Virus record (IMG/VR): IMGVR_UViG_3300023081_000042 | Span: 1-37,445 of that record | Direction: 5' to 3' (one strand) | Source of the DNA: a virus | Taxonomy: Duplodnaviria > Caudoviricetes | DNA length: 37,445 nt | Shown here: positions 177 to 37,330 of the stretch, in pieces | How positions within the stretch are numbered: the first letter of the stretch is position 1 | How the letters are laid out: every line of letters begins with the position of its first letter | Program-made: the position numbers and the translations under genes | Notes under the pieces: model-generated | The model's database searches: none | What the model saw: only the letters and a program-made list of their open reading frames with translations | What the model was told of the DNA's origin: nothing

Positions 177-822
177 CAGTTGGCGTATTGGATCTGAGTT
201 CCTTTGTACGCTCAGATTTGCCGCCTAACTTTGCCCACATCCATGATCCGCGCTTGCCGCCCCGTTCATACATGACGGGTTCAACGGGAGACGTTGGAAG
301 GTCTGCATTGAACCTGCCCCATATGCAGGTTTTTTTTGTGTACGCCTCAGAATCAGGATCGTCTGCAAACCCTGCATAATCGCACGGATTGAAGATCAGT
401 CCCCACTTTCCAAGTTCAGGCACAACGGATGCAATCCTGCCAACAGGATTCTCCAATGCCCACACCTTGGGATTGCACAGTTTGACGATCTCAAGGCAAT
501 CCCTGACGATCTGAGCAGACTGCTCCGTGCGCCCGTCTTGGTCTTTGACCTTGAAATGCCTTGCCCCGCTTGAAGCAAAGTCTGTACACGGTACAGCGAT
601 CAGAATTATGTCAAAATCAGGTTTGACGAATCCCTGACGGAGCAGGTTCAGGAATCCACGGGCAGTATCGCCACACCGCATCATGCCATCCTCAAAGGTC
701 CACACGTTTTCCCCGTCAGCAGGTCTGTGCTTTGGGTCTACAAGGAACACGGTGTGTCCTGCGTCAGCGTAGGGCTTTGCCCACTTACCGGAATAATCAC
801 AGAGTGAAAGAACGTTCATCAT
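142..822 (-). CDS. DNA cytosine-C5 methyltransferase-like protein
   Basis: N-terminal VLSLCDYSG (motif I variant), PCT (motif IV catalytic PC), WALENPVG (motif VI). Confidence 0.75.
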   Translation of the reverse strand: MMNVLSLCDYSGKWAKPYADAGHTVFLVDPKHRPADGENVWTFEDGMMRCGDTARGFLNLLRQGFVKPDFDIILIAVPCTDFASSGARHFKVKDQDGRTEQSAQIVRDCLEIVKLCNPKVWALENPVGRIASVVPELGKWGLIFNPCDYAGFADDPDSEAYTKKTCIWGRFNADLPTSPVEPVMYERGGKRGSWMWAKLGGKSERTKELRSNTPTGFSRAFFRANS

Positions 823-34003: not shown

Positions 34004-34633
34004 CTATATTTTTCGGGCCGCGATGATAAGTTCATCAAACGCAGACAACTCCTCGCCTACGCTGGACTGCCTGTAACCACCGTAATGCTTCATCAGGCGG
34101 TCTAAGGCATCATCTGCCGGGTAGAAGTCAAACTCCGTCCCGTATTTTGTCGGCCTCATCTTCTTTAGGAGTGAACCGTAGCCCTCTTTCTGCATCTGCT
34201 TGACATCAAATACATATTCAATGCCCAAATGCAGTTCGCCCTCGCAATGAGGACAGGCGACAGGCACCTCCCGCAGGTATTTCATCAGGTCCACATCAGC
34301 AATCGCCGAAAACTTGGCAATCACCTCTTCCATCGGCATCTTCAGAGCATCCGACTGATCTATCAGCCGCCGCTCCACCTCTGCCCAGATGTGTTCCTTC
34401 TTAAACAGCTTGTGAGCCTTAACCTTCATCGCCCGGTACGCCCTTCCGTCGTCCTCCTGACCCTCTGGCACCTTAGCGCAGTAGTAGCCAGCGGCTTCGT
34501 AGGAGCGGACCTTGTTCCGATAGGTCTGGCTCTCTGGATCAGTGTACAAGTCCACCAGCTTGGCTTCCTTATCTGTAAACTGATCGTATGTCTTTAATTC
34601 GTGTCTTTCTGGCATCCCGATCCATAGATACAC
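34004..34633 (-). CDS. terS: Terminase small subunit
   Basis: Upstream of terL; SYEAAGY HTH-like region; ALDRLMKHYG; start may be MPERH. Confidence 0.75.
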   Translation of the reverse strand: MYLWIGMPERHELKTYDQFTDKEAKLVDLYTDPESQTYRNKVRSYEAAGYYCAKVPEGQEDDGRAYRAMKVKAHKLFKKEHIWAEVERRLIDQSDALKMPMEEVIAKFSAIADVDLMKYLREVPVACPHCEGELHLGIEYVFDVKQMQKEGYGSLLKKMRPTKYGTEFDFYPADDALDRLMKHYGGYRQSSVGEELSAFDELIIAARKI

Positions 34634-34665
34634 CTTACTGGCCTTAATCTAATCTTCACAGAAAT

Positions 34666-34694
34666 ACGGCGCAATAAAATTGAGAAATAAAGTT
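34666..34694 (-). promoter_or_regulatory. Conserved late-promoter-like motif, copy upstream of terS
   Basis: Minus strand aactttatttctcaATTTTATTGCgccgt. Confidence 0.7.
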
Positions 34695-34721
34695 GCGTGG
34701 TATTATAGGTGGTGTTATATT
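34693..34721 (+). promoter_or_regulatory. sigma70-type promoter for ssb and the RNA cluster
   Basis: TTGCGT-17 nt-TATATT. Confidence 0.6.
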
Positions 34722-34774
34722 GCCCCTGTCGTGCAATTCCGCACGGCATTTTTACGTGTAAAGAGGTAAATACC

Positions 34775-35191
34775 ATGGCAAGAGGAGTAAATAAGGTCAT
34801 TCTCGTCGGCAATCTGGGACAAGACCCGGAGCTTCGCCACACAGACTCAGGAACCGCTGTCTGCAACATCCGACTCGCAACGAATGAGTCCTATAAGGAT
34901 GGAAATGGAGAGTGGGTTGAGAGAACTGAGTGGCACAGCATTGTTGCCTGGGCGAGACTGGCTGAGATTTGCAACGAATATCTCAAAAAGGGATCACAGG
35001 TCTACTTTGAGGGCAGCTTGCAGACTCGCAAATGGCAGGATAAAGAAGGAAATGAACGCTATACAACCGAGATCAAGGCCAAGGAGATGATGATGCTCTC
35101 CAGCTCTGACTCCGGTGATGGTTCTACTGGTTCCCCACCCGCTGTAAAGCCGTCTACCAAGGAAGTAATAGACGACGTTCTACCTTTCTAA
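34775..35191 (+). CDS. ssb: Single-stranded DNA-binding protein
   Basis: [23 protein letters not shown]..; acidic DDVLPF tail; GAGG RBS. Confidence 0.97.
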
Positions 35192-35210
35192 GGGGAAGCC
35201 TCCGCCCCAC

Positions 35211-35266
35211 GGCGGGGCATATAGTGCAAGGTTTTTGTGAGTTTCCCCTTCGCTGTATGTCCCGCC
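35211..35266 (+). other. Long RNA hairpin with G.U pairs
   Basis: GGCGGGGCATATAGTG-C-AAGG pairs with CCTT-CGCTGTATGTCCCGCC. Confidence 0.7.
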
Positions 35267-35275
35267 ACCCTTTTA

Positions 35276-35352
35276 GGGTGCGAAGTGGTTTAGACCAGTA
35301 GTAAAGCCTTTGGGAAGCTACTGGAACCCCGGTTCAACTCCGGGCGCATCCA
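35276..35352 (+). ncRNA. tmRNA tRNA-like-domain-only RNA (mini-tmRNA, Ala identity)
   Basis: Acceptor GGGTGCG/CGCATCC-A with G3.U70; unpaired AAGTGGTTTAGA; CCAGTAG/CTACTGG helix; AAC linker; CCCGG-TTCAACT-CCGGG T-arm. Confidence 0.8.
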
Positions 35353-35461
35353 CAACTGAGTAAGGCAGTCTAAACCTTGCCTGTTCTTACCTAAACAAAA
35401 CCACCACACAGGCGAGATGGGCAGTTAGTAAGACCCGTCCGTCTGATGGGGGTGTCATTGT

Positions 35462-35519
35462 GTAGAGGCAACGGGCTTTCGGGTGGGTGGGACCGCTGGA
35501 GGCCCGTTGTCGTTTCTAC
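35462..35519 (+). terminator. Strong hairpin, probable terminator or processing site
   Basis: GGCAACGGGCTTTCG..TGGAGGCCCGTTGTC followed by GTTT. Confidence 0.6.
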
Positions 35520-35556
35520 GCTATAGGGGAAATTTATTTTCTAATGGAGAGAAAAC

Positions 35557-35670
35557 ATGACATTCATTGAAGAGGTTAAGCAGGACTGGAAGGTGAACAA
35601 GGCCAGTCGCATACGCCAAATGCTCTTCTGGGGCGCAATGGGATTCTTAACCGCCAATTTTATTTTCTGA
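35557..35670 (+). CDS. 37-aa membrane peptide MTFIEEVKQDWKVNKASRIRQMLFWGAMGFLTANFIF (absent from ORF track)
   Basis: GGAGAG RBS; hydrophobic C-terminus. Confidence 0.55.
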   Translation: MTFIEEVKQDWKVNKASRIRQMLFWGAMGFLTANFIF

Positions 35671-35684
35671 TTTTATTGCACCCA
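35656..35684 (+). promoter_or_regulatory. Fourth copy of late-promoter-like motif, on plus strand
   Basis: aattttattttctgATTTTATTGCaccca aligns with the other three copies. Confidence 0.55.
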
Positions 35685-36507
35685 ACTTAGGGCAATACTA
35701 TCTTCTTACTACCGACGGGCGACTGGCTCCGAGGGTGTGAACAGGGCAGTGCGAGATACCCGCCAAACTTCAGTCTGAGACAAGCTGTTGGACCGACTAA
35801 AGTAAGTCCCCTGGCAAGAGCGTTGCTTACAGCATTAGGCTGTGCATCCCTTTGTGATTCCGGTGTCCCCCCGGCAACATACTCAGTCAGCGGCATTTAT
35901 CTCTCTATAGAATCACAAGGAAGGGGGGGCTATCTCTTCCTCTTACTCTTCTCTATATCTGGCTATCTCTCAAGGCTCCTCCACCAAGGGTGTGATATGT
36001 TTAAGACAGGCAACTCACTACACCTGAGCCAGTCCAGAAACAGGTCTTGAAAATACCACACGCATTTGAAAGAGGGGTAAGGTAGGGGGCCGGCAAAAAA
36101 ATACCCCCCCGACCCGGTAACTTACGGCAAAAAAAGGTGGATTCCAAATAGTTATGTGAAGATACGGCCAGGATAGTGTGAAGATACAGTGAACTTGAGC
36201 ACCGTTTCACAGAATCTGCGTAGAAACTACACATAAACTTCACGGGGATGGGTAACTCTTTTCCCCTTCAACCAATCTTCACTTGACAGAATGCACGTTT
36301 TTCCCTACGGACTGCAGGCATTGCCGATACTGCCAAAGGTAACTTGCCCGCATTGCCCTCTAAAATGAGCCAGGATGAGCGCAGATGCTTGGCCAGTAGG
36401 TAGGTATAGATTCCGGATTGGACGCGGTACAGAGGCTCTCAGGGGCCTCTCAAGAGATGTTCACCAGCTCGCACAGAAACGGTGGAACGTGCCGAATCGT
36501 TGGCACA

Positions 36508-36661: not shown

Positions 36662-37330
36662 TTACACCGTTTTGATTTTGCTTTTCTGTGAACCGTGAAC
36701 AGGAAACCCAATAGCGTAGGAGCGATCCGCGCGCGCACAGAGTCCGCACGTTGCGCAGGATACGTCCTCCCGTACTGTAGCAGGGCAGCGTACTACGCGC
36801 GCACCGTTGGGCGTGTGAGATACTTTCGGAGCGTCTTCCGGAAGCAATGTGACAACGGGCAATTGAAGCGCAAGGTATTGGTCCGCTTGCTCCAATGAAT
36901 CCGCTGACAGGTTAACCGTGAAACCGTTGCGGTTTGCTTCCGCAATGTGCTTTCCGTTGTCCGCCTTGAACGGATCGCAATGCGTATATGTGAAACCGTT
37001 CTTCCGCTTGTTAGCCGTTACGATATCCGCAAGAGCTTTTCCCGCAATGATACCGCCAACGTTGGGCAGATCGCCCGCGATATTGTGCCGCCACATTGTG
37101 CCGATTGGAAGCTTGCGCACGTTGTCAAGAAAGCCTTTCCAGTCTGTGCCACGCTCCTTTGCCGTTACCTTGTCCCAATGCGTCCGCGTATAATATCCCG
37201 CGTCCGCGTAACAGCCATTTCGGTTTAACGGGCATTCGGGCGGGCACGTAGACCGCTCCGACGTTGTGACGGGGATGGGTCCCGTTTTCTTGTTGCTTGA
37301 AACCCGTGTAAATGCGACTTGCCAAGCCAT
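36662..37330 (-). CDS. Cys-cluster phage protein (Gp88-like, possibly Fe-S/radical-SAM-related)
   Basis: CPPECP..GCYA, WRHNIAGDL, FTYTH, VNLSAD, CPA..SCATCGLC. Confidence 0.75.
   Translation of the reverse strand: MAWQVAFTRVSSNKKTGPIPVTTSERSTCPPECPLNRNGCYADAGYYTRTHWDKVTAKERGTDWKGFLDNVRKLPIGTMWRHNIAGDLPNVGGIIAGKALADIVTANKRKNGFTYTHCDPFKADNGKHIAEANRNGFTVNLSADSLEQADQYLALQLPVVTLLPEDAPKVSHTPNGARVVRCPATVREDVSCATCGLCARADRSYAIGFPVHGSQKSKIKTV

What the first reader, a model, noticed from the sequence alone, without database searches (positions are those of the whole stretch)
35276..35352. Phage-encoded tmRNA tRNA-like domain with no message domain
Seen: 7-bp acceptor stem with G3.U70 and discriminator A, a 12-nt stemless D-loop ending GGTTTAGA, a 7-8 bp helix, a 3-nt linker and a canonical T-arm. 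Known: this is the layout of the tmRNA tRNA-like domain (E. coli GGGGCUG-AUUCUGGAUUCGA-C...G-GAC-GCGGG-UUCAACU-CCCGC-CAGCUCC-A), which AlaRS charges and SmpB binds. Here the ~270-nt pseudoknot/tag-ORF region is replaced by about 14 nt (AAAGCCTTTGGGAA). CCA is not encoded. Inference: an alanylatable SmpB ligand that could sequester SmpB and block trans-translation, or accept stalled peptides without adding a degradation tag, for example to counter host tRNA/mRNA-cleaving defences. Message-less tmRNAs are known from some mitochondria; I do not know of a characterised phage example.
Basis: partly seen in the sequence, partly recalled or inferred. Interest (0 to 1): 0.92.

Follow-up and report, generated by a model that had tools for sequence, protein, structure and literature searches.

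The report
Phage tmRNA head without its message
This phage carries a 77-base stretch shaped like only the alanine-accepting head of the bacterial ribosome-rescue RNA (tmRNA), a kind already published from one mycobacterial phage and conserved in many uncultured phages, and it likely competes with the host's rescue-and-tag system.

Summary
In detail: 35276-35352 is a tmRNA tRNA-like domain (TLD) with no message. It is not new in kind. A 'TLD only' ssrA is published for mycobacteriophage DS6A, and such an RNA is reported to inhibit tagging in E. coli. A model built without this window scores it 64 bits, DS6A 57 and the best tRNA 26; DS6A has the same capped helix. The family is large: about 900 IMG/VR stretches estimated, with three unannotated copies in cultured Streptomyces phages. 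With the acceptor stem left free, 93 of 95 unique hits keep G3·U70; helix P2 pairs in 93% of cells against 48% shuffled. None of 50 carriers encodes SmpB. Best reading: an alanine-charged competitor for host SmpB and non-stop ribosomes that lowers tagging. Bolder reading: template-free alanine tailing. Against: expression is not shown, this copy has atypical D-loop and linker bases, and its leader can misfold the acceptor stem in silico. The likely host is Rhodothermales. This scan noted the same kind on at least 17 other genomes.

The parts
35276..35352 (+). TLD-only (message-less) tmRNA element, predicted mature body G1 to A73
   Evidence: 64.1 bits, E 6.9e-15, model built without it; RF00023 42.4 bits end to end
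35276..35282 (+). acceptor stem 5' strand; G3 at 35278
35283..35294 (+). stemless 12-nt D-loop with the GG pair; ends AGA where most members have CGA
   Evidence: 13 of 122 representatives have AGA
35295..35324 (+). P2 arm: 8-bp helix, AAAG/AA internal loop (35303-35306, 35315-35316), 2-bp capping hairpin (35307-35314) in place of the message domain
35325..35327 (+). 3-nt linker AAC; most members have GAC
   Evidence: AAC in 1 of 122, GAC in 104 of 122
35328..35344 (+). T-arm, 5 bp and 7-nt loop
35345..35355 (+). acceptor 3' strand (U70 at 35349), A73 at 35352, then CAA: C74 encoded, CCA not
   Evidence: C74 in 101 of 110 unique viral copies, CCA in 24 of 110
34775..35191 (+). ssb gene directly upstream on the same strand; likely shares a transcript (inferred)
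35211..35266 (+). long upstream hairpin, stems conserved and loop variable in near relatives; possible processing site (inferred)
35460..35521 (+). terminator-like long hairpin closing the non-coding stretch; relatives have a shorter hairpin with a T-run here
   Evidence: z -4.9 for 35445-35530; not called by the terminator scan

Best explanation
The element is a conserved, message-less copy of the tmRNA head that is likely cut from the ssb transcript, charged with alanine and bound by host SmpB, and so would compete with host tmRNA and lower tagging and degradation of proteins from stalled ribosomes. Shown here: the fold, family membership with DS6A, covariation, near-invariant alanine identity, and no phage SmpB. 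Inferred steps: (1) host RNase P and 3' trimming plus CCA addition mature it; (2) AlaRS charges it through G3·U70 and A73; (3) it binds host SmpB and EF-Tu, taking SmpB from tmRNA; (4) the charged complex enters non-stop ribosomes and accepts the chain but offers no resume codon, so no tag is made and release is left to other host factors; (5) the phage gains by sparing its own proteins from tagging or by damping a host response that needs trans-translation.
For: Model R1 (12 sequences, none from this clade): window 64.1 bits, DS6A 56.8, best tRNA 25.6. DS6A has the same internal loop and capped hairpin. PMC4131195 (passages) lists DS6A as 'TLD only' and says a similar molecule strongly inhibits tmRNA, perhaps by titrating SmpB; PMC11915505 (passages) says the DS6A form inhibits endogenous tmRNA in E. 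coli. With the acceptor unconstrained, 93 of 95 unique hits have G3·U70 and 93 of 95 have A73, while pairs 4-6 vary widely. P2 pairs 1-7: 93.2% of cells paired, shuffles 48.4% (max 52.9), slid registers 35-49%, 122 representatives under 85% identity. SmpB in 0 of 50 carriers, 24 of them at least 90% complete, and not in this genome, so the partner would be the host's. TLD plus SmpB is enough for A-site entry and peptidyl transfer in vitro (passages of PMC2481249; PMC3929946).
Against: No expression, charging or binding is shown for any member here. This copy departs from the norm in the D-loop and linker region where SmpB binds (PMC3989591): AAC linker in 1 of 122 representatives, AGA D-loop end in 13 of 122; 33 of 33 full tmRNAs parsed have GAC and CGA. 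Relatives L415 and L416 have lost more of the D-loop motif. With its 5' leader the acceptor stem's predicted pairing falls from about 1.0 to 0-0.03, though the 35190-35400 minimum-energy fold keeps it. The reported inhibition did not need charging, so plain competition does not explain why G3·U70 is kept. Two of 49 carriers also hold a full-length tmRNA, and Poribacteria and Nostoc genomes keep both forms, which fits an inhibitor poorly. On the model-fitted alignment two of five measures do not beat shuffles (pairs with double change 19 vs 17.3, 25 of 500; pair types 72 vs 70.9, 199 of 500).
Confidence: 0.5

Rival explanations
1. Productive template-free alanine tailing. Successive Ala-TLD·SmpB complexes enter the emptied A site, pass the chain from one TLD to the next, eject the broken mRNA and add a short poly-Ala tail, giving tag-free rescue or an RqcH-like degron on intact 70S ribosomes.
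For: TLD plus SmpB makes polyalanine without a template in a reconstituted system (Shimizu and Ueda 2006, seen only as cited in PMC3929946 and PMC2481249). After translocation the SmpB tail moves to the E-site side, frees the decoding centre and ejects the mRNA (PMC8363625 passages). G3·U70 is kept in 93 of 95. Length is tight: 99 of 122 representatives have a P2 arm of 30-34 nt, 97 of 122 of 30-33 nt. Coexistence with full tmRNA and SmpB in 5 of 5 Poribacteria genomes.
Against: No release step is provided: RF-1/ArfB domain in 1 of 49 carriers, Pth in 0 of 49. The only in vivo report is inhibition. Ala tails are ClpXP degrons in B. subtilis (PMC8012679), so the gain to a phage is unclear.
Confidence: 0.2
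2. Pure SmpB sponge that never enters the ribosome; alanine identity is kept only for processing, charging-linked stability or EF-Tu protection.
For: Inhibition was reported whether or not the molecule was chargeable. SmpB protects tmRNA from decay and the two are made in similar amounts (PMC4174442 passages), so titration alone would lower tmRNA activity.
Against: It does not readily explain near-invariant G1-C72, G2-C71, G3·U70 and A73 across sequences with a median 59% identity to this copy.
Confidence: 0.12
3. Decoy for host defence proteins that recognise tRNA or tmRNA ends, such as acceptor-end or T-arm nucleases or the SmpB-like domains of CoCoNuT systems.
For: 17 of 77 viral copies lie within 500 nt of a tRNA gene; one sits between an RNA ligase and a MazG gene (L016). 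One relative has a different tRNA-like element in the same slot (L419). CoCoNuT SPB domains are predicted to bind tmRNA (PMC11090510 passages; prediction only).
Against: 60 of 77 copies, this one included, have no tRNA within 500 nt; neighbours are mixed head, replication and lysis genes. The family keeps tmRNA-specific D-loop and linker motifs rather than tRNA ones.
Confidence: 0.12
4. Non-functional remnant: an attP scar or internally deleted ssrA, or a decaying copy in this lineage.
For: Atypical linker and D-loop; competing leader hairpin; no expression shown.
Against: Both halves are present and covary. Within the clade, L021 and L416 change both sides of P2 pairs and L415 rewrites acceptor pairs 4-6 while keeping G3·U70. 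No tyrosine integrase in the genome and no integrase hit among the 55 ORFs scanned.
Confidence: 0.06

Closest known systems
'TLD only' ssrA of mycobacteriophage DS6A (tmID 11587; PMC4131195, PMC11915505; JN698994, L272:3478-3557)
   Same: Standard order, no message, G3·U70, A73, no encoded CCA, P2 helix capped by an A-rich internal loop and short hairpin, 77 vs 80 nt; both match model R1.
   Different: Different phage and likely host group (Rhodothermales by SSB). Linker AAC vs CAC, D-loop end AGA vs CGA, 2-bp vs 3-bp cap. It lies behind ssb in a cassette of hairpins; DS6A's lies between gp33 and a DNA polymerase III gene.
Standard one-piece tmRNA (RF00023)
   Same: Acceptor identity, stemless D-loop, P2a and the asymmetric loop above it, 3-nt linker, T-arm.
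   Different: No pseudoknots, resume codon, tag frame or stop: 14 nt lie between the P2 strands. 42.4 bits, under the 47-bit cut-off.
CDS-less organellar tmRNAs (jakobid and oomycete mitochondria, Mallomonadaceae plastids; PMC11915505)
   Same: Loss of the tag frame with the TLD kept.
   Different: Those replace the organelle's only tmRNA; this one is viral and would meet a host with full tmRNA. No match to any other Rfam model at its gathering score.
Permuted two-piece tmRNA (RF04321)
   Same: Only the T-arm and acceptor 3' strand align (17.4 bits, E 0.45).
   Different: The acceptor's partner lies upstream, in standard order; the downstream G-run that the model used is not kept in most near relatives.
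RqcH/RqcP alanine tailing
   Same: Possible product, an untemplated Ala tail (rival 1).
   Different: Protein-driven on split 50S subunits with tRNA-Ala; here it would be RNA plus SmpB on 70S. A functional analogy only.

Membership tests
DS6A-type TLD-only tmRNA | 5' and 3' TLD halves in standard order, joined without a message | tested here: met
DS6A-type TLD-only tmRNA | alanine identity G1-C72, G2-C71, G3·U70, A73 | tested here: met
DS6A-type TLD-only tmRNA | stemless D-loop, P2 helix, 3-nt linker, T-arm | tested here: met
   linker and D-loop end are minority variants
DS6A-type TLD-only tmRNA | shares one profile with DS6A, well above tRNAs | tested here: met
   64.1 and 56.8 bits vs at most 25.6; neither was in the training set
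DS6A-type TLD-only tmRNA | carried by a phage | tested here: met
   terminase, capsid, neck and tail-fibre genes; virus record rated 100% complete
DS6A-type TLD-only tmRNA | expressed and processed as a small RNA | tested here: inconclusive
   contigs only; they cannot show ends, strand or level
DS6A-type TLD-only tmRNA | binds SmpB and inhibits tagging | not testable with these tools
   reported for DS6A or a similar molecule in citing papers; primary paper not held
Standard tmRNA (RF00023) | tag reading frame and pseudoknots | tested here: not met
   14 nt between the P2 strands; ARAGORN 0
Standard tmRNA (RF00023) | score at or above 47 bits | tested here: not met
   42.4 bits; 39 of 49 carrier records do pass
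Permuted two-piece tmRNA | acceptor 3' piece upstream of the 5' coding piece, with a tag frame | tested here: not met
tRNA, with or without intron (RF00005) | D-stem and anticodon arm with 7-nt loop | tested here: not met
   ARAGORN of 77 viral members tRNA

The most novel reading that the evidence does not exclude
TLD-only RNAs are a widespread class of phage, and sometimes chromosomal, ribosome effectors that work catalytically. Charged with alanine and loaded on host SmpB, they enter non-stop ribosomes round after round and add template-free alanine tails on intact 70S ribosomes, replacing the host's tag by an RNA-encoded route to Ala-tailing. This would explain why alanine identity and arm length are so strictly kept when the published inhibition does not need charging, and would give a tractable model for message-less mitochondrial tmRNA.
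Probability: 0.2. Interest if true: 0.85.

Novelty: new member of a known kind. Interest (0 to 1): 0.5.

Why it matters
The kind is known from one phage and was treated as an oddity. Here it is a family of 122 distinct viral sequences under 85% identity from two partial scans, with about 900 IMG/VR stretches estimated. A comparable pattern for ordinary tmRNA 3' ends gives about 880. ARAGORN's tRNA scan calls only 3 of 77, as tRNAs, and the main tmRNA curation relies on ARAGORN/BLAST hits and rejects large internal deletions, so members are easily missed. If functional, many phages tune host ribosome rescue with a 77-base RNA and no protein of their own. Strict alanine identity makes an old question testable, namely what a message-less tmRNA does on a stalled ribosome, and cultured Streptomyces phages provide a bench system.

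Tried and rejected
Expression: 19 RNA runs hold part of 35100-35700. I laid 7 of them and 1 run of unknown kind. All are contigs, and they also cover terminase and other genes, so DNA cannot be excluded. Two contigs stop at 35356 and 35360, but two others run on (to 35417 and 36022). No conclusion is drawn. Permuted tmRNA: rejected (E 0.45; the downstream G-run is not kept in most relatives and lies beside a terminator-like hairpin). Trans-acting docking partner (lead from e1-10029968): in 9 of 9 clade members tested, the best duplex of the cap with 500 nt either side was no stronger than about the best of 20 shuffles (8 of 9 at or weaker than the shuffled mean; L416 -17.4 vs shuffled best -16.9), and the sites did not agree (a first try matched nothing through a pattern error). 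Kink-turn at the internal loop: strict consensus in 3 of 122. Partner protein: SmpB 0 of 50, RF-1/ArfB domain 1 of 49, Pth 0 of 49; no recurring neighbour among 124 ORFs. BLASTN of this element against cultured phages: no match. Host from cultured phages and plasmids: uninformative. Six of 9 cultured-phage candidates were not family members (22-30 bits or no match). No sigma-70 consensus promoter in 34600-36400. Mao et al. 2009 is not held. The supplement of PMC11915505 gave 0 hits for four terms, and the tmRNA database itself was not seen, so it may list further CDS-less phage entries.

Full report
Observation. The window is a whole 37,445-bp virus record rated complete, with terminase, capsid, neck, tail-fibre and replication genes. 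At 35276-35352 the sequence folds as described (z -3.0): 7-bp acceptor with G3·U70, A73, a 12-nt stemless D-loop, an 8-bp helix, linker AAC and a canonical T-arm, followed by CAA. The 14 nt in place of the message form an AAAG/AA internal loop and a 2-bp hairpin. The full layout occurred 0 times in 1500 dinucleotide-resampled windows. ARAGORN and Rfam gathering scans are blank; RF00023 matches end to end at 42.4 bits, under its cut-off.

What is in print. PMC4131195 (passages) lists DS6A as 'TLD only' and says a similar molecule, chargeable or not, strongly inhibits tmRNA, perhaps by titrating SmpB. PMC11915505 (passages, section 7 and a supplement search) says the DS6A form inhibits endogenous tmRNA in E. 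coli. Both cite Mao et al. 2009, which I could not read, and they differ on which molecule was tested. Seven searches (listings and abstract starts) showed no paper on a wider phage family. Subscription journals and the tmRNA database itself were not searchable.

Family. A pattern from this element found 30 stretches, 11 of them TLD-only: 9 near-identical and 2 diverged; most of the rest were tRNAs. A general pattern gave 120 loci, about 900 estimated from 10 of 64 parts; 118 of 120 pair fully in acceptor and T stems. That pattern fixes G3·U70, so I ran a second one that leaves the acceptor free (about 390 estimated). Of 120 loci 119 parsed, giving 95 unique sequences: 93 have G3·U70 and 93 have A73, while pairs 4-6 take four to seven pair types. 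The two G·U misses (L182, L190) have a 1-nt indel in the acceptor and keep G·U in the model alignment; one of the 93 (L235) is a chance match. CCA is encoded in 23 of 95. After keeping fully paired hits, 160 unique sequences fall into 122 clusters at 85%, median 59% identical to this copy. P2, placed by anchors without using pairing, is 93.2% paired against 48.4% shuffled and 35-49% slid; the 100% figures for the other two stems there are by construction. On a model-fitted alignment of 99 matches, cells paired (95.8% vs 62.3%) and double changes (745 vs 223) exceed all 500 shuffles, but two measures do not, and relatedness is not controlled.

Membership. Model R1, from 12 sequences outside this clade, scores the window 64.1 bits, DS6A (L272:3478-3557) 56.8 and the best tRNA 25.6. 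DS6A has the same internal loop and capped hairpin. So this is a member of the DS6A kind, and neither a standard or permuted tmRNA nor a tRNA. Three of 9 cultured-phage candidates are unannotated members: LuckySocke, BRock and pSt2308; the LuckySocke copy equals a training sequence, so its score is by construction. The cap often carries GCAYG (32 of 122 vs 9.8 shuffled), the motif that ends the 5' strand of helix 2 in full tmRNA. This suggests origin by internal deletion (inference).

Context. The element follows ssb on the same strand, among hairpins conserved in near relatives, and before a terminator-like hairpin, so processing from a longer transcript is the likely route (inference). Named relatives of the SSB among the top 120 hits are mostly Rhodothermia or Rhodothermales, 65-88% identical, which points to that host group; no host tmRNA could be compared. 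Across the family neighbours are mixed (124 ORFs), and 17 of 77 copies are within 500 nt of a tRNA. SmpB is absent from 50 of 50 carriers and from this genome. A release-factor domain occurs in 1 of 49 and Pth in 0 of 49. Two of 49 also carry a full tmRNA and one has two TLD-only copies. In bacterial genomes about 140 stretches match; 83 of 120 pair fully, 19 of them labelled Poribacteria. The Poribacteria copy mostly sits by housekeeping genes, far from an intact ssrA-smpB locus (5 of 5), and has a different cap.

Mechanism. SmpB binds the D-loop and T-stem base of the TLD and boosts alanylation (PMC3989591 passages). [quoted passage not shown] After translocation the SmpB tail ejects the broken mRNA and frees the decoding centre (PMC8363625 passages). 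I therefore commit to a charged competitor that takes SmpB, enters non-stop ribosomes and yields no tag (0.5). Productive Ala-tailing (0.2), a pure sponge (0.12), a defence decoy (0.12) and a relic (0.06) are the rivals. The telling point is that reported inhibition needs no charging, yet G3·U70 is nearly invariant, which favours ribosome entry over simple sequestration.

Against this reading. Expression is not shown. This copy has minority bases in the D-loop and linker: AAC in 1 of 122, AGA in 13 of 122, neither seen in 33 parsed full tmRNAs, and two close relatives deviate further. Its leader can pair with the acceptor's 5' strand, and predicted acceptor pairing drops to 0-0.03 with flanks; the energy model ignores tertiary contacts and SmpB. 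Coexistence with full tmRNA in some phages and chromosomes fits a pure inhibitor poorly.

Verdict. Real, conserved, and a new member of a known kind. What is added is breadth, strict alanine identity, a conserved cap and cultured test systems. The scan has noted the same kind on at least 17 other genomes and the Poribacteria copy three times; those notes are unchecked and were not used as support. Interest 0.5.

Noticed in passing
window 35411-35443 (+): Conserved hairpin with a 12-nt loop and covarying stems in near relatives; its pattern gives 9 IMG/VR hits, 8 of 9 with a TLD-only element just upstream. No Rfam match.
   Followed up: partly
window 35357-35389 (+): Hairpin directly after the element, with a GTAAG-GCAG start resembling the motif in the next hairpin; conserved in relatives.
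   Followed up: no
L419, about 565-632 (-): A relative has a different tRNA-like element in the same slot: three short arms, T-loop, C discriminator, no G3·U70, 5-nt middle loop; weak mascRNA-model match, E 0.027. The slot looks like a swappable small-RNA cassette.
   Followed up: partly
window 35265-35282; L414, L416: The leader can pair with the acceptor 5' strand. Two relatives have about 59 extra bases here that separate the leader hairpin from the element, so this lineage may have lost them.
   Followed up: partly
L276, L277, L279, L296, L307, L309 and 13 more; G001-G005: Poribacteria carry a chromosomal 82-83 nt TLD-only gene, mostly between a PLP-dependent decarboxylase and a Na/Ca exchanger gene, besides an intact ssrA-smpB locus.
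   Followed up: partly
L287, L303, L339: Three Nostoc genomes carry an 81-nt TLD-only element near a tRNA-like gene, plus a full tmRNA elsewhere.
   Followed up: partly
L075:2001-2092, L085:2001-2092: Longer 92-nt TLD-only variants lie inside the 3' end of the portal open reading frame on the same strand.
   Followed up: no
L406:801-878, L407:601-678, L408:576-653: Unannotated members in tRNA clusters of cultured Streptomyces phages pSt2308, LuckySocke and BRock.
   Followed up: yes
G013, G019, G044: Two virus records hold both a full tmRNA and a TLD-only copy; one holds two TLD-only copies.
   Followed up: no
window 34727-34748 (+): Terminator-like hairpin just before the ssb start codon, in the divergent gap between terS and ssb; could attenuate the ssb-TLD transcript.
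   Followed up: no
window 36662-37330 (-); L036, L050: DUF7227 / phrog_2554 gene lies near the element here and next to it in two other carriers.
   Followed up: no
L404:1439-1531, L405:939-1031: Salinibacter phages M31CR41-3 and SRUTV-1 carry a 93-nt TLD-like element (30 bits) that lacks G3·U70 in the model's register.
   Followed up: no
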